Made by a program: the position numbers and the translations under genes
Part shown: positions 30,438-56,409 of the stretch, one piece after another
Layout: each line of letters starts with the position of its first letter
Numbering within the stretch: the first letter of the stretch is position 1
Notes under the pieces: model-generated
Told to the model about the DNA's origin: nothing
Seen by the model: the letters and a program-made list of their open reading frames with translations, nothing else
Database searches by the model: none
Source of the DNA: an uncultured Lactobacillus sp.
GTDB lineage: Bacteria; Bacillota; Bacilli; Lactobacillales; Lactobacillaceae
Direction of reading: 5' to 3'
DNA: 64,000 nucleotides
Assembly (NCBI GenBank): GCA_945971245.1
Contig: CAMFOZ010000001.1
Coordinates: 140-64,139 of the forward strand

Positions 30438-32138
30438 CTACTTAAGGCTGTCGTTTTTGAAGTTTTCTACATTACCAACGCTTTGACCGTTTACTACACT
30501 TGCTTTGAAGCTTAGTTTGTCACCAGGACGAACAAGGTTAGCATTGTCATAATCGTTAGTGTTAACGGTGTAAACAGTGTTGCTGTTCTGGAGTGTGAAC
30601 ATTACTTTGTTCTTGTTTGAAACAACCGCAGCACGATCAACGACACCGCTGACTTTCTTATCTTTTGCTCCCGGCGTATTTTTAGCAGTAGCACCATCAT
30701 TAACCAGCGCCTGCCGGAACGCATCCAACGCGCTCGTTGGATTGTTCCCGCTGCCGTAGAGTGATTGATCTTTAGCATCAAGATAGTAGTAACCACGAAT
30801 TGCATGAGAACTGTCAAGGATTGTCATGACCCACGTTGGGCGTCCGTTAACGTTGTATAGAACTGGCATCTTAGCTTTCCACTGTTGAGCCTTGTAGTTT
30901 TGGTTAGCATTCTCTTTTGCACCGGTGCTATCCATAATTCCGTTGGCTGAGTAGTAGGTCAGTTTCCCTGTTCGAGCGTTAATCATTGAGTAACCCATTG
31001 CTGAGTCAGCTTTGCTATTAGGATTGGTAAAGTCCGTAAAGTAGCTGATTGAACCATCACGGTTAAAAATTGATGTCACACCATCTTCGGGGCCATTATT
31101 AGTTGGCTTAATAACATCAGTCTTGCTCCAATTCCAGAAGCCTTGCTTGTATTTACCAAAGATAGTGTTCATATCAGCTGCGGCATCACTTGTGATACCT
31201 TCATCAACGAACTTTGGCAATGACTTTAACGAGTAAGTGTTTTGCTCTCCGGTCTGTGCATTCATAACAACAACATGAAGTTTTTGGTAGTTAACACGGT
31301 GACTAAAGGCTTCTGACTTGTAGACTGTTTGTACCCAAAACGGAGTTCCACTATTATCAATTTCAAGTTGCGGTGTACTCATCGTTAACCATTCGGGGTT
31401 GTGACGGTAAATTTGGCGATCAACATCATAGCCAAAGTAGGCACTCTTAGCGTACTTATACGGTTTCTTGACAAATTCCGGTTCAGCATTTTGATTGGTT
31501 GCATCTACGATAAAGTAACCGGGGATTTTGCCTGCGCGCCGCATCGCAAAGAAGCCGTCATAGCTAAGTGGAATGATATATACTGGCTTGCCTTTGTAAT
31601 ATTGAGCCTGCACCGTGTCTGGTGTGTCATAGTATTGACTGTTAGGGATGTCAGACATCGATTTATGAACCCGGTTCAATACAGTATTAGGAGCTAAAGC
31701 GACCGGTGTTTCGTTTCGCTTAAACGTTGGTGCTTCAGTTGATTTGCTGTATTGTTTTGAGATTGATTTCCACGTTGGCTTAACCGACATAGCTGAATGA
31801 ACTTCACCAGCAAGGCCAGCGAAGAACACGACCACAAAAGCAATGATCCCAATTCCAAAAACATTCAAGCCGTTTTTGCCCGTTGCCCTGTAAGAATCTG
31901 GAACGAAACAGATAGCAATTGCTTCATAAATTGCTCCCCAAAAACCATTACTGATTAAAATACTCAGCAGGTTTCTTGATGGTAATCCAAAATAAACACG
32001 CACAAATGTGAAAATGGCAAAAGACGCCAGCAAAATACAATTCGTAATTAGCCAACCGTTATGCTTATGTTCACAGATAACATTTATTAGGAACAAAATG
32101 ATTGGCCCCAGCATATATACCAAAGTCATAGCTAACAT
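30438..32138 (-). CDS. polytopic membrane protein with large extracytoplasmic domain (566 aa)
   Basis: About 4 N-terminal TM helices, then a ~440-aa soluble region. The ATG overlaps the upstream stop (TAATG at 32140-32136). Confidence 0.7.
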   Translation of the reverse strand: MLAMTLVYMLGPIILFLINVICEHKHNGWLITNCILLASFAIFTFVRVYFGLPSRNLLSILISNGFWGAIYEAIAICFVPDSYRATGKNGLNVFGIGIIAFVVVFFAGLAGEVHSAMSVKPTWKSISKQYSKSTEAPTFKRNETPVALAPNTVLNRVHKSMSDIPNSQYYDTPDTVQAQYYKGKPVYIIPLSYDGFFAMRRAGKIPGYFIVDATNQNAEPEFVKKPYKYAKSAYFGYDVDRQIYRHNPEWLTMSTPQLEIDNSGTPFWVQTVYKSEAFSHRVNYQKLHVVVMNAQTGEQNTYSLKSLPKFVDEGITSDAAADMNTIFGKYKQGFWNWSKTDVIKPTNNGPEDGVTSIFNRDGSISYFTDFTNPNSKADSAMGYSMINARTGKLTYYSANGIMDSTGAKENANQNYKAQQWKAKMPVLYNVNGRPTWVMTILDSSHAIRGYYYLDAKDQSLYGSGNNPTSALDAFRQALVNDGATAKNTPGAKDKKVSGVVDRAAVVSNKNKVMFTLQNSNTVYTVNTNDYDNANLVRPGDKLSFKASVVNGQSVGNVENFKNDSLK

Positions 32139-34180
32139 TATTTATCCTCCTTTGGTTCTGCTAGTAAATCAGTAAACGTTGATTGGGTTAACTTGTCTGG
32201 GCTTAAACCAATGATGTCCGGTGCATCATAGTTAAACTGCACATAAGCCTGCCCGTTCTTAGTCACCATATGGTTATCTAGAATATGTGCTGAACTTCTG
32301 AGTACACTTTTCAACTCATCCTCGTCACTAATTACGTGGCCACCCAACAGCTTAATCAAGTCAGTAACCATATAGGTGTTATCCAGCTGATGTCGGAAGA
32401 TTTCGATAAGCTTTGTTGTCGTGTCGCTAACACCCGGCACCCGAACGTTACCAAAGCTAGTGGCAGTAAAGCCAATCTTCACACCCTCATCGGTCGGCAA
32501 AACAACCATCAGCATCTTAGACATTTCTTGTGGTGAAATACTATCGTGGAACAAGGCCGACTTAGAATCGATGATTTGTGTGGCAACACCTTGCTGACTG
32601 TTACGATCGACATTTGCCCCAGTAATGAAGACATCAAACTTAACGTCCCCATTGCTATGATAGTCATTCACCGAAACAATCATCGGTGCAGTCAGGGTAT
32701 TTGCCTTGATCTTGTAAAATTCAGCAGCGTATCCATATGGGTTGAGATGAGTCATATCCCCTGAGAACGTCACTGTCCCGCTGTATGAGCCATTCCATCC
32801 ATAGTGTTCACCATCAAGTGACATCATATGCAGATCAAGGTCAGCGGGCGTATTCCAGGCAACACCCAATGAAACATCCTTACCCTTGAATTCGTATGAA
32901 CTCATGTACGGTAACGTACCTACAAAATCTTTACCCGATGTCGGCAAAGCGTAGTTGATGCCTTCGGGAATGTAGAACACTTTATCGCTCCAATCTCCGT
33001 AGCGCCGTTTTAGTTCATTGACGATCATCTGGCGAACCCGGTTTTTTCGTTCAGTCTTGTTCGTCCAATTGACAATTTTAAGGCGCCAATCCTTGTTATC
33101 CAGCTTTAGGTAGCTCTTGCCGTTACGAATTTTGAAGTACCTTGCATTCATAGCGCCGTCTTTGCGTATCATGGCATTCATGATCTTGATCAATTTGTAA
33201 ATCGGAGTCTTAGCCATTGATTTACGAATTGCATCCAGTGAGACATCAAGATCCATAACATGCTCCAGCGGCGACTGCTTGCGTGGCACATACATACGCT
33301 TAGATAACTTCATTGCACGGTTAATCAGCGTCTTATCAGTGAATCGCTTACGAAGAACCAGGTACAGCTTCCGGTAACGAGTGATATTCTTAGCAACCGT
33401 TTCAATGCCGAATTGCTTAACATACTGGTTAAATGCTTTTTCTTGCCGCGCATGTGCATCACGTCCTAGCCAGTCTAACTTGGTTAGCATAGCCCGCGAC
33501 TTAATTAAAAGTGTGCTACCGGTGCCCAGATAAATCAGGTAACGAGTAAATTCATCAAAGCTCTTTGGTAAAAGATTGAGCTCTTTACACATCCGGCACA
33601 TAAACTCACGATTGCTAATTTGGTCAAGATAGTCATTAACTGGCAACTTACATCCATTAATAACGATAATAAGGTTGCTTTGTGTTACTTCATCCAGTGC
33701 CATGCCGCTTGTAAGCATGGTCTTTACCTTTTCTCCGATCTCTTCAACCGATAAGGCTTCGATATAGGTTAGGTCGTGTTCGACGTCAATATCGAGTCCT
33801 TTGAGATATTCTGGTTCGTACCCCACAATGTCACTACGATCAATTCCACGGTCATACGTGCTCATGTAATGAGCCAATTGGTCCATGCGTAGTTGCAACT
33901 CGCTACGGTTTTCTACATCACTAAATCGCTTATAGAACGTCGAGTTGACTTTTGCCATATCCACGCCGTATTCGCCAACAGCAGTGTTGATAATATCTTT
34001 AGATTCAAAAAACGAGCGATCAACAAACGCATCTGTATCAAATACCACTCCTTTTGAAATGGCCATAAGGCGTTCAGCTTTCAGCCCGGCGTGCTCTTGG
34101 CGATTACCATTTTTAAGCACAACAGCTTTGAAAAGTTTAATTGTTGCATGGTTAAGTTGGTATGCAGTCATGCGAGTCAT
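32138..34180 (-). CDS. large protein (680 aa) with TerD-like domain near residues 425-520
   Basis: SLGVAWNTPADLDLHMMSLDGEHYGWNGSYSGTVTFSGDMT...PMIVSVNDYH parallels the TerD pattern GLGWD..DLDASAFLL..FIFYNN..GSVTHTGDN..IIFVVTIHD. Alternative start ATG 34171. Confidence 0.7.
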   Translation of the reverse strand: MTRMTAYQLNHATIKLFKAVVLKNGNRQEHAGLKAERLMAISKGVVFDTDAFVDRSFFESKDIINTAVGEYGVDMAKVNSTFYKRFSDVENRSELQLRMDQLAHYMSTYDRGIDRSDIVGYEPEYLKGLDIDVEHDLTYIEALSVEEIGEKVKTMLTSGMALDEVTQSNLIIVINGCKLPVNDYLDQISNREFMCRMCKELNLLPKSFDEFTRYLIYLGTGSTLLIKSRAMLTKLDWLGRDAHARQEKAFNQYVKQFGIETVAKNITRYRKLYLVLRKRFTDKTLINRAMKLSKRMYVPRKQSPLEHVMDLDVSLDAIRKSMAKTPIYKLIKIMNAMIRKDGAMNARYFKIRNGKSYLKLDNKDWRLKIVNWTNKTERKNRVRQMIVNELKRRYGDWSDKVFYIPEGINYALPTSGKDFVGTLPYMSSYEFKGKDVSLGVAWNTPADLDLHMMSLDGEHYGWNGSYSGTVTFSGDMTHLNPYGYAAEFYKIKANTLTAPMIVSVNDYHSNGDVKFDVFITGANVDRNSQQGVATQIIDSKSALFHDSISPQEMSKMLMVVLPTDEGVKIGFTATSFGNVRVPGVSDTTTKLIEIFRHQLDNTYMVTDLIKLLGGHVISDEDELKSVLRSSAHILDNHMVTKNGQAYVQFNYDAPDIIGLSPDKLTQSTFTDLLAEPKEDK

Positions 34181-34189
34181 CCTTTCATT

Positions 34190-34226
34190 TCAAAATAAAA
34201 AAAGGTAGCTCAAAAAGAGCTACCTT
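34190..34226 (-). terminator. strong rho-independent terminator closing the RNA island
   Basis: 10-bp stem aaggtagctc / gagctacctt with a 5-nt loop, followed on the minus strand by UUUUUUUUAUUUUG. Confidence 0.85.
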
Positions 34227-34371
34227 GCTTAAGCGTAAAAGGCGGAGCGTATTCATTAAGTTTTGCAGACTTGTAATAAATAGGAACGCTCTTGTGCCTT
34301 TTGAATGTTGTGACTAGACGTAAAAATATCTCAGACATGATGTAAATATAGGAACGTCTTTGTGTCACTGA

Positions 34372-34440
34372 TGCCGATCGATGGAGTCGAACCACCTGAA
34401 GTACGAATTGAAGAGCCACACTTTTGCTCCGAGCATCGAC
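34372..34440 (-). ncRNA. 69-nt tRNA-like element a (Thr-CGU-like anticodon loop, no variable loop)
   Basis: Acceptor GUCGAUG/GAUCGGC (6/7 bp). GAGC-9nt-GCUC D-like hairpin. UUCAA-UUCGUAC-UUCAG arm (4/5 bp). T arm GGUGG-UUCGACU-CCAUC directly abuts the anticodon arm. Confidence 0.5.
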
Positions 34441-34443
34441 GTA

Positions 34444-34508
34444 AAGGCATAGCTTGTACTATTACAAAAAGGAGCTTCTCAACTCCTTTATATTGATGTC
34501 TATGCCTT
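34444..34508 (-). repeat. structured module 1: outer helix aaggcatag/ctatgcctt around the conserved hairpin ggagcttctcaactcctt
   Basis: Core at 34471-34488. Outer helix 34444-34452 / 34500-34508. Confidence 0.7.
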
Positions 34509-34509
34509 A

Positions 34510-34582
34510 TTGTGGGAGCTGGACTCGAACCAGCGAATCACGGTACCAAAAACCGTTGCCTTACCAACTTGGCTATCTCACA
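34510..34582 (-). tRNA. tRNA-Gln (anticodon UUG)
   Basis: Acceptor UGUGAGA/UCCCACA (one A-C mismatch). D arm GCC-AAGUUGGUAA-GGC as in bacterial tRNA-Gln. Anticodon arm ACGGU-UUUUGGU-ACCGU. T arm GCUGG-UUCGAGU-CCAGC. No encoded CCA. Confidence 0.85.
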
Positions 34583-34721
34583 GTAAACGCCTTAAATAGG
34601 CGAAGCTTCTTTGATCTCCCATACCTACTCTTAGCGTGCCCGTCGTCACGAGCCCCTCTGGTGAGATTATTAGCTAACCGCCTCACTTTTTTGACGGCGA
34701 TGATTTTTCCCAAGAGGGTTA

Positions 34722-34835
34722 TGCTGATGAGTGGATTCGAACCACTAGCCAAACGGGAGCGGCCCGGTTGGCTCCTGCACTTTGCAGCCGAAACTTGGTT
34801 GCGACCCAAGGTATCTACTTTGCTGTGCCATCAAC
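34722..34835 (-). ncRNA. 114-nt tRNA-like element c (good acceptor and T arms, oversized core)
   Basis: Acceptor GUUGAUG/CAUCAGC (7 bp). T arm AGUGG-UUCGAAU-CCACU. Internal hairpins CUUGG-GUCGCAA-CCAAG, CUGCA-AAG-UGCAG and AGCCAA...UUGGCU. No D stem. Confidence 0.5.
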
Positions 34836-34836
34836 G

Positions 34837-34928
34837 TTTTCAAAGCATGGAGTGTGTATTTTAAAGACGTGTTACCAACAGTAAAGAGGAGCTTCTCAAC
34901 TCCTTTTTATTTATTCATGCTTTGAAAA
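34837..34928 (-). repeat. structured module 2: 13-bp outer helix around the second copy of the conserved hairpin
   Basis: ttttcaaagcatg (34837-34849) pairs with catgctttgaaaa (34916-34928). Core at 34888-34905. Confidence 0.7.
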
Positions 34929-35032
34929 ATATGGATTATGATCATCTGCCACCATCGCGTCGGCTTTGCACCGGATTCCATACGTATTAGTTTATTATCT
35001 AGGAAGAATGACTACACTTGTCGTGAAGCCAA

Positions 35033-35105
35033 TGAACGCGGTGGGCTTCGGTCCCACGACCCTCGGATTAAAAGTCCGATGCTCTACCAGCTGAGCTACA
35101 CATTC
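35033..35105 (-). tRNA. tRNA-Lys (anticodon UUU) with non-canonical T loop
   Basis: Acceptor GAAUGUG/CGCGUUC. D arm GCUC-AGCUGGUA-GAGC. Anticodon arm UCGGA-CUUUUAA-UCCGA. T stem GUGGG/CCCAC, but the loop is ACCGAAG rather than UUCRANN. Confidence 0.75.
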
Positions 35106-35130
35106 AAATTAAAGTCAGCAAGATAGCTGA

Positions 35131-35556
35131 CTACATAACGTCGATATCAAGTTTCTGTGCTAGATTTTCTAAAAACTCATTACGCAACTCGTAAGCTCTC
35201 GTAGTGCCGACCGGGACAATGTGCTGATCACACAATTCTGGAATTGTTCGTTTAGCATAATTGTCAAAGTATAATTTCTGAATCAACTTAACGGTGATAG
35301 TCCCAGCTTCATCAAGGCAATCATCAATTGCCTGACGTTCAAGTTTTAATCGTTGAAGCCGTCGATCATCATTAATGGTAATCACAAGATTGGAAACCGG
35401 GTCGCTTCGCTTATTCAAAGCACGGCCACCGCCAACATTCTCGTCATCGTCCATTGTCGGATTTTCAAGTTCTTCTTCACGTTTCTTAATATATTGGGAG
35501 AGTTTAGGATAATCGCGTAATACGTCTTCTAGCACATGGCGAATTGATCGTCTCAA
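35131..35556 (-). CDS. ArpU/RinA-family late transcriptional regulator
   Basis: 141 aa, TTG start with GGGAGTGG SD. The LRDYPKL...LERQAIDDCL...KLIQKLYF pattern is typical of the ArpU family. Confidence 0.75.
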   Translation of the reverse strand: MRRSIRHVLEDVLRDYPKLSQYIKKREEELENPTMDDDENVGGGRALNKRSDPVSNLVITINDDRRLQRLKLERQAIDDCLDEAGTITVKLIQKLYFDNYAKRTIPELCDQHIVPVGTTRAYELRNEFLENLAQKLDIDVM

Positions 35557-35601
35557 TATTCCACTCCCAATATTAAGTTGTTAAGGGCCATTAAAGACCG
35601 A

Positions 35602-35675
35602 CGCCGAATGCCCGACTTGAACGGGCGACACTCGATTTAACAGACCGATGCTCTAACCAGCTGAGCTAATTCGGC
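35602..35675 (-). tRNA. tRNA-Asn (anticodon GUU)
   Basis: GCCGAAU-UA-GCUC-AGCUGGUUA-GAGC-A-UCGGU-CUGUUAA-AUCGA-GUGUC-GCCCG-UUCAAGU-CGGGC-AUUCGGC-G. All arms canonical. Confidence 0.9.
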
Positions 35676-35682
35676 GAATATT

Positions 35683-35751
35683 ACCAAGCGGCCGGATTCC
35701 AACCGACATTTTGCATGACCAGATCTGTCTAAGTTATCTATCTTCGCTTGG
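35683..35751 (-). ncRNA. 69-nt tRNA-like element g (CAU in a loop, weak anticodon stem, no variable loop)
   Basis: Acceptor CCAAGCG/CGCUUGG (7 bp). T arm GUCGG-UUGGAAU-CCGGC. The putative anticodon arm AUCUG-GUCAUGC-AAAAU has only 3/5 bp. No clear D stem. Confidence 0.45.
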
Positions 35752-36231
35752 TAATAAAGAGATCTCATTTTTAAGCTCACAAATTTATTACACGGATAGG
35801 AGCTTGACTCTAAGTTCGCCAGAATCGCCGTGGCTTTCTAATTACTAGAAATTGCTAAGATAAGGGAGCTACCCTTAATATTCTAGGCTGGGATTTGCAC
35901 CCAACAAGCGAATTTCTAACGGAGAGAGCAAGGTTCTATAGCGAGGCATCCTCCGGCTGTACCTATTGAGCAACTAGAATACAGAATTGATTATTTAGTT
36001 GTGATGACCCTGACGAGAGTCAATAGCCGCCGTTGGATTCGAACCAACTGTTGTGTCCACGTTACACGCGGCTGCCTTAAAGAGATAATCTCGAATCGAA
36101 AAAGCCTAGAATTTAGTCAATATTAGGTGTACAGGTTAAGCGATTGATGCTCTGTCAAAGCACATTATTAAGCTTATACCCGACGATAAATTAGTACAAT
36201 GAATACAGGTTCAACGTGAATAACTTTTTTG
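35752..36231 (-). ncRNA. candidate large structured ncRNA (ROOL/GOLLD-like or novel); boundaries approximate
   Basis: No ORF >=60 aa on either strand. 10-bp long-range helix 35880-35889 / 36103-36112. Several local hairpins. Adjacent to phage tRNAs. Confidence 0.4.
36024..36073 (-). ncRNA. 50-nt D-armless tRNA-like minihelix i
   Basis: AGCCGC/GCGGCU acceptor-like stem, GUGU-AACGUGG-ACAC hairpin, and perfect T arm GUUGG-UUCGAAU-CCAAC. Confidence 0.45.
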
Positions 36232-36756
36232 TTAATCATCATGACACCGGGCCTTTGCCTCGTTAATTAACGTTCTTCCGGAATCTACTCTTGACTTAAC
36301 GGCATCAAACGCTACCACAAACTCTTCCCATGCATTGTTAGCATTGAAGTAGGTAGTTCCTGGATTAATCATTCGCTCATTAGCACTCAGCATCTTAACC
36401 AGGTCCTGGTGAATCTTCTTGGCCGTTTCAACTTTTTTCTTATTGGAAAATTGCTCTAGCGCTCGGTTTATTGCTGATTTAATCTCTGGGTTGGTGTGCG
36501 TATTAACGGGAATATCGTCATACGCATTCTCAGAATACACAGTTACCACTGCCCGCTTCTTTGGATCCACAATCACCACAATATCATTTAGCCGATACTT
36601 GGTTCGATTTTTGCTTTGTGTTTCAACATATGTGCATTGTTGAAGTAACCGTTGAATCCAAGTATCAAGCTCCTTATTGGTAATATTGAACCGGGTAAGA
36701 ATACGATCCTTAGCATGGGCAGTAACGGTATACATGGCGTAATCTCTAACACTCAA
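36232..36756 (-). CDS. hypothetical protein (174 aa)
   Basis: ORF track; TTG start with GGAGGTGA SD. Confidence 0.55.
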   Translation of the reverse strand: MSVRDYAMYTVTAHAKDRILTRFNITNKELDTWIQRLLQQCTYVETQSKNRTKYRLNDIVVIVDPKKRAVVTVYSENAYDDIPVNTHTNPEIKSAINRALEQFSNKKKVETAKKIHQDLVKMLSANERMINPGTTYFNANNAWEEFVVAFDAVKSRVDSGRTLINEAKARCHDD

Positions 36757-55128: not shown

Positions 55129-55212
55129 GCATTAGAGTTAAAAATACTGCTGACACATTATTTTTAACTCCTTCATTATAGCATTGGTATTTATATGAAT
55201 GGAGGAATTATT

Positions 55213-56409
55213 ATGTGGGTTCACCCATATAAAAGTAACGAAGAACGTAAAGGTAAAATCGTCGAAGTGACTCATTACCAGTTTCTCGAACGATATAAGG
55301 ACCCAAAAACCGGTAAAAATAAAACGGTTTCCGTTTCTTATGACCGTAACACACCGCAAGTTCGCAAAGAAGCAACGAAGAAGCTGGAGAAAAAGATAGA
55401 GAAGAAGATTCGAGAAGTTGAAGCGAGCAACACAGATATTACGTTAGAAGAGCTGAAAGATGAGTTCTTGGATTACTATAAGCACCACGTTGCATTGAGA
55501 ACATACCTGATTAATAAGTCTGTTCTTAAAACAACCTGCAAGATTCTCGGCGGTGACACACTTGCTCGGCGTATAACGACACCTATGCTTAACAAATATT
55601 TTGACGATCGTCTCTACAACGAAGACAAGCCAGTCTCAAACAGCACAGTAAGAAATACTCGTAAAGCATTATCGCTTGCCTACAAGTTTGCTAATCGCTA
55701 TGGGCTCTTAACCGTTAATCCCGTCAAAGACACACAAGTTAACTGGCGGGACGAGGTTGATGCCCGTCGAGATCGTATTGAAAATAAGTACCTGACGCGC
55801 GATGAATACCATAAGATCTTGGATTACTGCGCTAAAAAGCATAAGCAATATTATGTTGACGCATTTGAACTTCAATATCTCACCGGACTACGCTTCGGTG
55901 AATTAATTGGCTTACAGGTTAAAGACGTTATCAAACAAGATGGACGGATCTATCTTGATATCAACGGAACTATGGTAGTAACTGATGATCACTCTAAACA
56001 AGTTAAATCAGATCGAACCAAAAGCATTTCTGGTATTAGGCGGATCATTCTTTCTAAAGACGCTACTGAGATCGTGGAGCGCAACATTAAGGGCAAGAAA
56101 GCCAATGATTGGATAATTACCCGGCCCGCATCCTATAATCTCCCAGAACGTCCCCTGAAGCTAAATACGATAGACACATTTCTTAGGAGAACAGCTAAGA
56201 GATTGGGGATTGAAAAGAATGTTACTACCCACTTCTTCCGACACACGCACGTTTCAAACCTCGCCGATTTGGATGTTCCCCTTCGAGTAATTCAGAAACG
56301 GGTTGGCCACGCCAACAGCGAAATTACTCGGCGAATATATCTACACGTAACTAAGCGTACAAGCGAAAAGTTCGTTGATATGATTGACTCAATAGACAAG
56401 CTAAATTAG
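55213..56409 (+). CDS. int: tyrosine integrase
   Basis: C-terminal HFFRHTHVS...RVGHAN...RIYLH catalytic pattern. ATG 55213 with GGAGGA SD. Confidence 0.9.
   Translation: MWVHPYKSNEERKGKIVEVTHYQFLERYKDPKTGKNKTVSVSYDRNTPQVRKEATKKLEKKIEKKIREVEASNTDITLEELKDEFLDYYKHHVALRTYLINKSVLKTTCKILGGDTLARRITTPMLNKYFDDRLYNEDKPVSNSTVRNTRKALSLAYKFANRYGLLTVNPVKDTQVNWRDEVDARRDRIENKYLTRDEYHKILDYCAKKHKQYYVDAFELQYLTGLRFGELIGLQVKDVIKQDGRIYLDINGTMVVTDDHSKQVKSDRTKSISGIRRIILSKDATEIVERNIKGKKANDWIITRPASYNLPERPLKLNTIDTFLRRTAKRLGIEKNVTTHFFRHTHVSNLADLDVPLRVIQKRVGHANSEITRRIYLHVTKRTSEKFVDMIDSIDKLN

What the first reader, a model, noticed from the sequence alone, without database searches (positions are those of the whole stretch)
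35676..36231. ORF-free, helix-dense ~0.55-kb segment beside phage tRNAs: candidate large ornate ncRNA (ROOL/GOLLD class or new)
Seen: the ORF track has no ORF >=60 aa on either strand between 35557 and 36231. This is unusual in a prophage where neighbouring genes otherwise overlap by 1-11 nt. On the minus strand the stretch is packed with helices. A 10-bp long-range pairing, attctaggct (35880-35889) with agcctagaat (36103-36112), closes ~215 nt. There are hairpins at 35835-35851 (tttcta-attac-tagaaa) and 35861-35877 (taaggg-agcta-ccctta), a competing pairing 35846-35853 / 35911-35918, and a T-arm-like hairpin at 35889-35903. A 50-nt acceptor/T-arm minihelix (36024-36073) and a 69-nt tRNA-like unit (35683-35751) are embedded. 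Established: ROOL and GOLLD are roughly 0.5-0.8 kb structured RNAs of unknown function reported in Lactobacillales prophages, characteristically next to tRNA genes (GOLLD sometimes contains one). Inference: this is such an RNA or an undescribed relative. I cannot match a consensus by eye.
Basis: partly seen in the sequence, partly recalled or inferred. Interest (0 to 1): 0.85.

Follow-up and report, generated by a model that had tools for sequence, protein, structure and literature searches.

The report
Phage array of anticodon-less tRNA mimics
The gene-free 0.55 kb next to the prophage tRNA genes is not a ROOL or GOLLD giant RNA but a conserved string of small tRNA look-alikes that cannot read codons, plus one new four-helix RNA motif, probably cut out of one transcript by the cell's tRNA-processing enzymes.

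Summary
The segment (36231..35677, minus strand) is ORF-free and conserved in related prophage contigs. It is not ROOL or GOLLD: Rfam finds only three ordinary tRNAs, even at E<=10. It is probably not one large RNA either. The segment splits into modules:
- U1, a 50-nt acceptor/T-arm minihelix with three compensatory pairs.
- U2, a 105-nt cloverleaf-like unit with a swollen 'anticodon' arm (conserved, no covariation).
- mod3, a 120-nt four-helix motif absent from Rfam. It has six compensatory pairs and occurs in three phage lineages.
- U4, a 69-78-nt tRNA-like unit without an anticodon arm.
Modules are swapped, added or lost between phages. Two relatives keep U1, U2 and a tRNA-like unit with no detectable canonical tRNA. 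Anticodon-arm-less tRNA-like genes also turned up in at least 50-85 unrelated IMG/VR phage contigs, several just upstream of terminase genes. Best reading, with function inferred: a polycistronic precursor processed by RNase P and RNase Z into non-decoding tRNA mimics and a small structured RNA.

The parts
36113..36231 (-). S0: leader between the stop codon of the 174-aa gene and the RNA modules. It contains the small hairpin GUGCU-N7-AGCAU and a box, TTG(T/A)AC-N15-TATA(AG/CA), that is shared with L013.
   Evidence: About 82% identical to relatives, the same as the coding flank. It is replaced by a small ORF plus a different leader in L011 and L013. The simple scan found no sigma-70 consensus promoter and no terminator here. 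Reading the box as a promoter is inference.
36095..36112 (-).
   Evidence: Alignments A1 and A12. Relatives read GTTCCGA followed directly by TCGAGA, so the pairing cannot form in them.
36024..36073 (-). U1: acceptor/T-arm minihelix with a short variable hairpin in place of the D and anticodon arms. Acceptor strands are 36073..36067 and 36031..36025. The T-arm is 36048..36032. The discriminator is A36024.
   Evidence: R2 hit of 19.9 bits, E 2.5e-6. Three acceptor pairs change compensatorily across four distinct sequences, and one T-stem pair runs U-A, U-G, C-G.
35983..36023 (-). Conserved spacer (UUGACUCGUCAGGGUCA...AAUAAUCAAUUCU) between U1 and U2.
   Evidence: Nearly invariant, including in the more distant L011 and L013. 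No structure or role assigned.
35878..35982 (-). U2: cloverleaf-like tRNA mimic. It has a 9-bp closing/acceptor stem (35982..35974 with 35886..35878), a canonical D-arm (GCUC-AAUAGGUA-), a 6-bp 'anticodon' stem (35955..35950 with 35925..35920) that encloses 23-26 nt, a 15-nt variable region, and a T-arm (35904..35888) with the aberrant loop UGCAAAU.
   Evidence: Consensus fold. 98% of cells are paired, against 35-51% when partners are slid, but no compensatory change was seen; only GU/GC switches that fit the minus strand. Neither ARAGORN nor Rfam tRNA calls it.
35762..35881 (-). mod3: a four-helix RNA motif. H1 is 35877..35872 with 35866..35861 (invariant loop UAGCU). H2 is 35851..35846 with 35840..35835. 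H3 is 35832..35828 with 35795..35791. H4 is 35821..35818 with 35808..35805. A conserved tail, CCGUGUAAUAAAUUUGUGAGCUUAAAA, follows.
   Evidence: 98.2% of cells paired, 6 pairs with compensatory change, 0 of 500 shuffles as good. Model R1 finds it in the window lineage and in L014, L023 and L025-L030, but in none of 67 unrelated phage loci. No Rfam match.
35759..35766 (-). Self-complementary octamer GAGAUCUC in the spacer between mod3 and U4.
   Evidence: The same position carries (A)GAGATCTC(T), AAGATCTT or AATCATGATT in the three lineages. Statistics are weak: 14-25% of shuffled spacers contain an 8-nt palindrome.
35679..35756 (-). U4: anticodon-arm-less tRNA-like unit. The 12-bp closing stem is 35756..35745 with 35690..35679. 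The T-arm is 35707..35691, with loop UUGGAAU. The D-arm is degenerate. The linker GCAAAAUGUCG is shared with the L023 unit.
   Evidence: R2 hit at 35683-35751, 18.3 bits, E 1e-5. One C-G to U-A compensatory change plus three wobble-compatible changes, with no disruptions. MFE z-score -3.6. A 12-bp perfect inverted repeat or longer occurs in under 1% of shuffles.
35600..35676 (-). Canonical tRNA-Asn(GUU), starting 2-3 nt after the U4 stem.
   Evidence: ARAGORN and Rfam, 64.9 bits.
35131..35556 (-). ArpU/DUF722-like late transcription regulator gene, embedded in the RNA array.
   Evidence: phrog_36 at E 3e-18. Homologues are annotated PF05263.
35032..35106 (-). Canonical tRNA-Lys(UUU).
34723..34835 (-). 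U5: 113-nt tRNA-like unit with an anticodon-like arm (loop GUCGCAA) and an insertion of about 47 nt in the variable region.
   Evidence: Rfam tRNA gives only 17 bits, E=4. Acceptor and T-stem pairs change compensatorily against L010. MFE z-score -2.6.
34510..34582 (-). Canonical tRNA-Gln(UUG). ARAGORN and Rfam do not call it in relative L010.
34373..34440 (-). U6: 68-nt tRNA-like unit with an acceptor stem (6 of 7 pairs), a D-like hairpin, a T-arm and no anticodon arm. It is the last unit before the terminator.
   Evidence: T-arm hit. Against L010, G-U becomes G-C in the T-stem.
34202..34226 (-). Intrinsic terminator (10-bp stem followed by a U run) that ends the RNA array, just before the 680-aa gene.

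Best explanation
The segment is the upstream part of the prophage's tRNA operon. It is read on the minus strand together with tRNA-Asn, and probably from the genes upstream. It encodes three tRNA mimics that cannot decode (U1, U2, U4) and one 120-nt four-helix RNA (mod3).

Each mimic keeps the acceptor/T-arm stack that bacterial RNase P, RNase Z and the CCA-adding enzyme recognise. U2 also keeps a canonical D-arm. Each lacks a normal anticodon arm. The host tRNA-processing enzymes are therefore expected to cut the precursor at each mimic. That would release the mimics, and the mod3 RNA that lies between two of them, as discrete small RNAs.

Shown here: non-coding status, conservation, covariation, tRNA-likeness, modular turnover, and absence of ROOL or GOLLD. 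Inferred: transcription, processing, and the final role. I favour processing handles that deliver mod3, and/or non-decoding tRNA decoys that occupy tRNA-binding host factors.
For: - No ROOL, GOLLD or other Rfam family apart from three tRNAs.
- No conserved ORF.
- Homologous segments occur in six contigs at 82-97% identity. U2, mod3 and U4 are more conserved (88-96%) than the flanking genes (84-88%).
- Compensatory changes occur in U1, mod3, U4 and U5.
- GU/GC switches fit only the minus strand.
- U1 and U4 match a model of anticodon-arm-less tRNA-likes built from other phages.
- L011 and L013 keep U1, U2, a hairpin and a tRNA-like unit, and no canonical tRNA is detected there.
- mod3 followed by a tRNA-like unit recurs in two other phage groups, next to tRNAs and a tmRNA.
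- There is no terminator inside the segment and a strong one at the end of the array.
- All units and all three tRNAs lack an encoded CCA and have A/U-rich trailers, as expected for RNase Z substrates in Firmicutes (sequence, plus established knowledge).
Against: - There are no expression or processing data.
- Single-sequence folding energies are unremarkable for U1, U2 and mod3.
- U2 shows conservation only, with no covariation.
- The alignments hold few, closely related sequences (4-9 distinct), so the covariation statistics are soft.
- Module gain and loss between relatives would also fit a decaying array.
- No sigma-70 consensus promoter was found in the leader.
Confidence: 0.6

Rival explanations
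1. The units are decaying tRNA pseudogenes and spacer debris in a fast-turnover phage tRNA array. They have no function of their own.
For: - Arrays differ between close relatives. L006 and L010 carry extra modules, including a tRNA-Tyr in L006, and tRNA-Gln is not called in L010.
- The related tmRNA-bearing arrays contain obvious fragments.
- U2 has no compensatory change.
- MFE z-scores are mostly weak.
Against: - Substitutions in the stems of U1, U4, U5 and mod3 preserve pairing.
- Conservation exceeds that of the flanking coding DNA.
- L011 and L013 retain the non-canonical units with no detectable real tRNA.
- mod3 is not tRNA-derived and is kept in three lineages.
- Anticodon-arm-less units with intact 7-bp acceptor stems are common in unrelated phages: 50 of 119 pattern hits, against 4 of 119 in the shuffled control.
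Confidence: 0.2
2. It is one large ornate RNA of the ROOL/GOLLD kind, or an undescribed relative, whose long-range helices tie the whole 0.55 kb together.
For: - The context is right: a prophage, adjacent to tRNAs, with ArpU relatives in Lactobacillales genomes. ROOL and GOLLD share that context (PMC5737381).
- In the close relatives, a complementarity of about 20 bp links S0 to the stretch just after U1.
Against: - No covariance-model hit, even at E<=10.
- The proposed closing helix is window-specific and not beyond chance.
- The S0 complementarity has 4 broken pairs in the window, no compensatory change, and is absent where S0 is replaced in L011 and L013.
- Modules occur separately in other phages.
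Confidence: 0.05
3. The conservation reflects DNA-level control of the late regulator and late operon: promoters, operators and palindromic protein-binding sites upstream of tRNA-Asn and ArpU. On this reading it does not reflect RNA products.
For: - A conserved TTGNAC-N15-TATA box lies in the leader.
- A self-complementary 8-10-mer is kept at one position in three lineages.
- In other phages, anticodon-less units sit 17-44 nt upstream of terS or downstream of ArpU-like genes.
Against: - Compensatory changes and GU-tolerant, strand-specific changes indicate RNA helices.
- The units are plainly tRNA-shaped.
- The palindrome statistics are weak.
Confidence: 0.1
4. The segment encodes conserved small proteins.
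For: ORFs of 32-47 aa exist.
Against: - All use TTG or GTG starts.
- Frames are broken or shifted in relatives.
- The longest overlaps tRNA-Asn.
Confidence: 0.02

Closest known systems
ROOL RNA (Rfam RF03087) and GOLLD RNA (RF01998)
   Same: Non-coding, in prophages, next to and possibly co-transcribed with tRNA genes (PMC5737381). ArpU relatives of this prophage lie in Lactobacillales genomes.
   Different: - No covariance-model match at any threshold tried.
- No conserved multistem or pseudoknot architecture spanning the segment.
- The segment is a chain of independent 50-120-nt modules that recombine between phages.
Small stable RNAs of the phage T4 tRNA cluster (species 1 and 2, rnaC and rnaD). 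Cited from my own knowledge, not tested here.
   Same: Non-tRNA stable RNAs of unknown function, encoded inside a phage tRNA operon and matured from the same precursor by tRNA-processing enzymes.
   Different: A different phage group and host. No sequence or structure comparison could be made here. Expression of the present units is unproven.
tRNA-like domain of tmRNA (RF00023)
   Same: An acceptor stem and T-arm without an anticodon arm. Phages related through mod3 carry a genuine tmRNA about 200 nt upstream of mod3.
   Different: - No tmRNA model hit in the window.
- No tag reading frame.
- The two halves are contiguous rather than separated by an mRNA-like domain.
- No G3:U70 pair was seen in U1 or U4.
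tRNA-like processing handles: the MALAT1 mascRNA element and the murid herpesvirus 68 tRNA-miRNA (TMER) units. Cited from my own knowledge.
   Same: tRNA-shaped modules that do not decode, recruit RNase P and RNase Z, and so liberate a neighbouring small RNA. mod3 lies between two such modules.
   Different: Those systems are eukaryotic. Processing here is inferred only.
Polycistrons of irregular tRNA sequences and allo-tRNAs (Mukai et al. 2017, PMC5389517)
   Same: Clusters of non-standard tRNA-like genes, some probably not used in translation.
   Different: Those units keep an anticodon arm and differ in acceptor/T-stem lengths (8/4, 9/3). Here the anticodon arm is missing or swollen.

Membership tests
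ROOL (RF03087) | Match to the family covariance model. | tested here: not met
   cmscan of the whole window at gathering score, and of 34150-36300 at E<=10, returned no ROOL hit. None in 14 related loci either.
ROOL (RF03087) | [quoted passage not shown] | tested here: not met
   The consensus fold recovers local modules. Long-range pairs have no compensatory support and are partly broken in the window. The modules occur separately in other phages. Pseudoknots were not searched for.
ROOL / GOLLD | Genomic context: prophage, adjacent to tRNA genes. | tested here: met
   Three tRNAs lie within 1.2 kb on the same strand, with phage genes on both sides.
GOLLD (RF01998) | Match to the family covariance model. 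| tested here: not met
   No hit at gathering score or at E<=10.
Canonical tRNA (RF00005) | Cloverleaf with a 5-bp anticodon stem and a 7-nt loop, detected by tRNA models. | tested here: not met
   ARAGORN at default and relaxed thresholds, and Rfam tRNA at E<=10, do not call U1, U2 or U4. U5 reaches only 17 bits.
Anticodon-arm-less phage tRNA-like units (class defined here, model R2) | A 7-bp acceptor stem contiguous with a 5-bp T-stem and a T-loop, with no room for an anticodon arm. | tested here: met
   R2 matches U1 (36024-36073, 19.9 bits) and U4 (35683-35751, 18.3 bits) over the full model length.
Anticodon-arm-less phage tRNA-like units (class defined here, model R2) | Canonical D-arm (UAGCUCAGUGGUAGAGC-like). 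| tested here: not met
   U1 has a short variable hairpin instead. U4 has a degenerate 3-4-bp stem with a loop of about 15 nt.
tmRNA (RF00023) | Model match, a tag-peptide reading frame and a G3:U70 pair. | tested here: not met
   No tmRNA hit in the window. Related large-phage contigs do carry one.
mod3 motif (model R1, defined here) | Four helices H1-H4, with the UAGCU loop and the CCGUGUAAUAAAUUUGUGAGCUU tail. | tested here: met
   127 bits in the window, though the window is in the seed. L014, L023 and L027-L029, from other phage groups, were aligned with it and show compensatory changes. L025, L026 and L030 were not in the seed and score about 129 bits.

The most novel reading that the evidence does not exclude
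Phages carry a so far undescribed class of genes for tRNA bodies without an anticodon arm: acceptor stem, D-arm and T-arm, 55-65 nt in total. In this lineage they are coupled to a new four-helix RNA (mod3). They may act as non-decoding tRNA mimics. One possibility is that they are decoys or sponges for tRNA-recognising host factors, including tRNA-targeting defence nucleases. Another is that they are RNase P/Z-dependent punctuation marks that mature late-operon transcripts such as terS, and release cargo RNAs.
Probability: 0.3. Interest if true: 0.8.

Novelty: new variant of a known kind. Interest (0 to 1): 0.55.

Why it matters
Phage tRNA genes are currently debated as counter-measures to host tRNA-targeting defences (PMC10264068). 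Units that keep everything the tRNA-processing enzymes need, but nothing needed for decoding, cannot be explained by codon supply. That makes the question of what else phage tRNA-shaped RNAs do directly testable.

The work also yields two concrete searchable objects that are absent from Rfam: the mod3 motif and the anticodon-arm-less tRNA-like class. It warns that gene-free stretches beside phage tRNAs should not be filed as ROOL or GOLLD on context alone.

Tried and rejected
- **ROOL, GOLLD and all other Rfam families:** searched at permissive thresholds. Nothing was found beyond the tRNAs.
- **ARAGORN with relaxed thresholds and intron mode:** gave only low-quality, overlapping calls.
- **GenBank phage collection:** no homologue of the segment, of a 20-kb stretch around it, of the mod3/tmRNA region of L027, or of a common anticodon-less unit.
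- **IMG/VR and JGI metagenomes:** no exact matches to the U1 or U2 motifs.
- **Homologue retrieval:** flanking-protein searches in IMG/VR and GTDB genomes gave only distant ArpU relatives without the RNA region. Useful homologues came only from the 174-aa neighbour through Logan and ENA contigs.
- **tmRNA, or a degenerate tmRNA:** considered because related phages carry one. Rejected, with no model hit and no tag frame.
- **tRNA with an intron (U2):** rejected. A 19-nt insert is not a bacterial intron type, and the insert's 3' half is the best-conserved part.
it exists, but L011 and L013 change one arm and lack the other, so nothing supports it.
- **A dimerisation palindrome:** suggestive but statistically weak.
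- **Literature:** seven searches found no description of anticodon-arm-less phage tRNA-like genes. Absence from the held library does not prove novelty.

Full report
**Setting**

The window carries a prophage whose genes run on the minus strand. An integrase lies at 55195-56409, and host genes (rsuA-like, pyk, dnaE) lie beyond 56.6 kb.

In transcription order the finding follows a 174-aa gene (36756..36232, phrog_5083, unknown function). It precedes, in order:
- tRNA-Asn (35676..35600)
- an ArpU/DUF722-like late regulator (35556..35131)
- tRNA-Lys (35106..35032)
- tRNA-Gln (34582..34510)
- a strong terminator (34226..34202)

The nearest genome relatives of the ArpU protein are in Loigolactobacillus and Enterococcus, at only 37-45% identity. 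That fits a Lactobacillales host but does not prove one.

**Checking the observation**

The stretch is free of ORFs of 60 aa or more. The short ORFs it holds (32-47 aa, TTG or GTG starts) are not conserved in frame among relatives. Every hairpin and both arms of the 10-bp pairing are at the stated coordinates.

'Helix-dense' is not beyond chance. The MFE z-score is -1.4 on the minus strand. A perfect inverted repeat of 10 bp or more appears in 12% of shuffles. What is clearly non-random is the density of T-arm-like motifs: 7 of the 13 minus-strand matches in 64 kb lie in the 2 kb from 34190 to 36231.

**Known families**

Rfam 15 gives only the three tRNAs at gathering score. At E<=10 over 34150-36300 it returns nothing for ROOL, GOLLD, tmRNA or any other large RNA. 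Fourteen related loci also lack ROOL and GOLLD.

**Relatives**

DNA searches of GenBank phages, IMG/VR and JGI metagenomes found nothing. Homologues of the 174-aa neighbour led to Logan and ENA contigs.
- L006-L010 carry the same segment at 82-97% identity.
- L011 and L013 carry part of it at 81%.

Compared with coding flanks at 84-88% identity, U2 is 88%, mod3 92%, U4 96% and tRNA-Asn 99% identical.

**The closing helix fails**

In all relatives the 5' arm (36112..36103) is replaced. The window has an 11-nt insertion and four substitutions there.

The 3' arm is the conserved 3' acceptor strand of a tRNA-like unit whose conserved partner lies about 100 nt upstream. Whole-region consensus folding predicts other long-range pairs. 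None shows a compensatory change, several are broken in the window, and the leader that forms them is replaced in L011 and L013.

**Anatomy**

- **U1 (36073..36024).** An acceptor/T-arm minihelix with a short variable hairpin. Acceptor pairs 3-5 read CCG/CGG, UUG/CAA, UCG/CGA and CCA/UGG in four sequences, and a T-stem pair runs U-A, U-G, C-G.
- **U2 (35982..35878).** It folds as a cloverleaf with a 9-bp closing stem, a canonical D-arm, a 6-bp stem enclosing 23-26 nt where the anticodon loop should be, a 15-nt variable region, and a T-arm with the odd loop UGCAAAU. It is 98% paired in six distinct sequences. It varies only by GU/GC switches, so it rests on conservation and not on covariation.
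- **mod3 (35881..35762).** 98.2% of cells are paired, six pairs show compensatory change, and no shuffle of 500 does as well.
- **U4 (35756..35679).** A 12-bp stem stacked on a T-arm, with a degenerate D-arm and no anticodon arm. It shows one full compensatory change and three wobble-compatible ones, with no disruption.

The GU-tolerant changes fit only a minus-strand RNA.

**The rest of the array**

Downstream of ArpU, U5 (34835..34723) and U6 (34440..34373) are further non-canonical units. U5 shows compensatory changes against L010.

**Modularity**

- L006 and L010 insert extra units between U4 and tRNA-Asn, including a tRNA-Tyr in L006.
- tRNA-Gln is not called in L010.
- L011 and L013 keep U1 and U2, then carry a different hairpin and an anticodon-less tRNA-like unit. 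No canonical tRNA is detected in those contigs.
- mod3 recurs in two other phage groups. L014 and L023 were reached through distant homologues of the 174-aa protein; L025-L030 through a motif scan. It sits in ORF-poor tracts of 1.6-4.5 kb with tRNAs and, in L025-L030, a genuine tmRNA.
- mod3 is always followed by a spacer and an anticodon-arm-less tRNA-like unit.
- The mod3 model finds nothing in 67 unrelated phage loci.

This pattern fits independent small units, not one large RNA.

**A wider class**

Of the 119 hits analysed:
- 50 have a perfect 7-bp acceptor stem at the canonical offset, against 4 with a shuffled strand.
- 85 pass a looser test.
- ARAGORN calls almost none of them as tRNAs, and 59 of the 85 have no tRNA within 1 kb.
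- Twelve sit 17-44 nt upstream of a terminase small-subunit gene, and four lie downstream of an ArpU-like gene.

The high pairing rate in alignment A11 is partly circular, because I selected its members for paired stems. I found no description of this class in the held literature.

**Mechanism**

What the units retain is the acceptor/T-arm stack, in U2 with a canonical D-arm that could form the elbow. By established enzymology this is the substrate of bacterial RNase P, RNase Z and CCA-adding enzyme. What they lack is the anticodon arm needed for decoding. All units and the three tRNAs lack an encoded CCA. No terminator interrupts the segment.

I therefore propose a polycistronic precursor that is cut at each mimic. 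This would release the mimics and the mod3 RNA bracketed by U2 and U4. Whether the mimics are only handles, or act as decoys for tRNA-binding factors, cannot be decided here. The idea that phage tRNAs counter tRNA-targeting defences (PMC10264068) makes the decoy version worth testing.

**Verdict**

This is a real, conserved, structured non-coding region. It is mis-assigned as ROOL/GOLLD and mis-drawn as one large RNA. It is a new variant of the known theme of phage tRNA-operon RNAs. It contains one new motif (mod3) and members of an apparently undescribed, widespread class of anticodon-arm-less tRNA mimics. Function remains inferred.

Noticed in passing
L034-L153 (IMG/VR contigs), e.g. L039:1986-2042, L075:406-462, L146:6384-6440: Genes for tRNA bodies without an anticodon arm: 7-bp acceptor stem, canonical D-arm, 8-18-nt linker and T-arm, 55-65 nt in total. 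They are common in unrelated phage contigs. Fifty of 119 pattern hits have perfect acceptor stems, against 4 in the shuffled control. Most have no tRNA within 1 kb. Twelve lie 17-44 nt upstream of a terminase small-subunit gene.
   Followed up: partly
L025-L030, e.g. L027:4668-5046: Uncultivated phage contigs of about 45-120 kb carry a full tmRNA (tag ANNHRVTALAA) inside a long ORF-poor tract of tRNAs and tRNA fragments. The tmRNA lies about 200 nt upstream of mod3. There is no match in GenBank phages.
   Followed up: partly
L014:502-577, L023:883-955, L029:1076-1151; L023:230-306: The related arrays contain tRNAs with unusual anticodons: Phe(AAA), with G rather than U at position 33 (read in L023), and Ile(UAU). 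Some carry extended variable regions.
   Followed up: no
window 34466-34497 and 34883-34914: A 32-nt repeat (91% identical) forms a 7-bp hairpin with a GAGA tetraloop after two of the RNA units. It is also present in L008 and L010. It may be a processing or terminator element.
   Followed up: no
window 35759-35766; L023:1244-1251; L014:924-933: A self-complementary 8-10-mer (GAGATCTC, AAGATCTT or AATCATGATT) is kept at the same place between mod3 and the following tRNA-like unit in three lineages. The window lineage has a second AGATCT inside U4 (35727..35720). The statistics are weak.
   Followed up: partly
window 30438-34180: The two large genes just downstream of the array terminator (680 aa and 566 aa) sit where terminase and portal genes are usually found. 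They have no Pfam or PHROG match at all.
   Followed up: no
window 36232-36756: The 174-aa gene upstream of the segment (phrog_5083) gives a sub-threshold match to the ThsA Macro domain (E 0.005, 17 bits against a cutoff of 25). Its homologues are the only reliable handle for retrieving related RNA loci.
   Followed up: no
L007:1981-2003 with L007:2155-2180 (aligned to window about 36205..36183 and 36016..35992): In the close relatives, a complementarity of about 20 bp links the leader to the conserved spacer after U1. In the window four of these pairs are broken and four have become G-U, and there is no compensatory change.
   Followed up: partly
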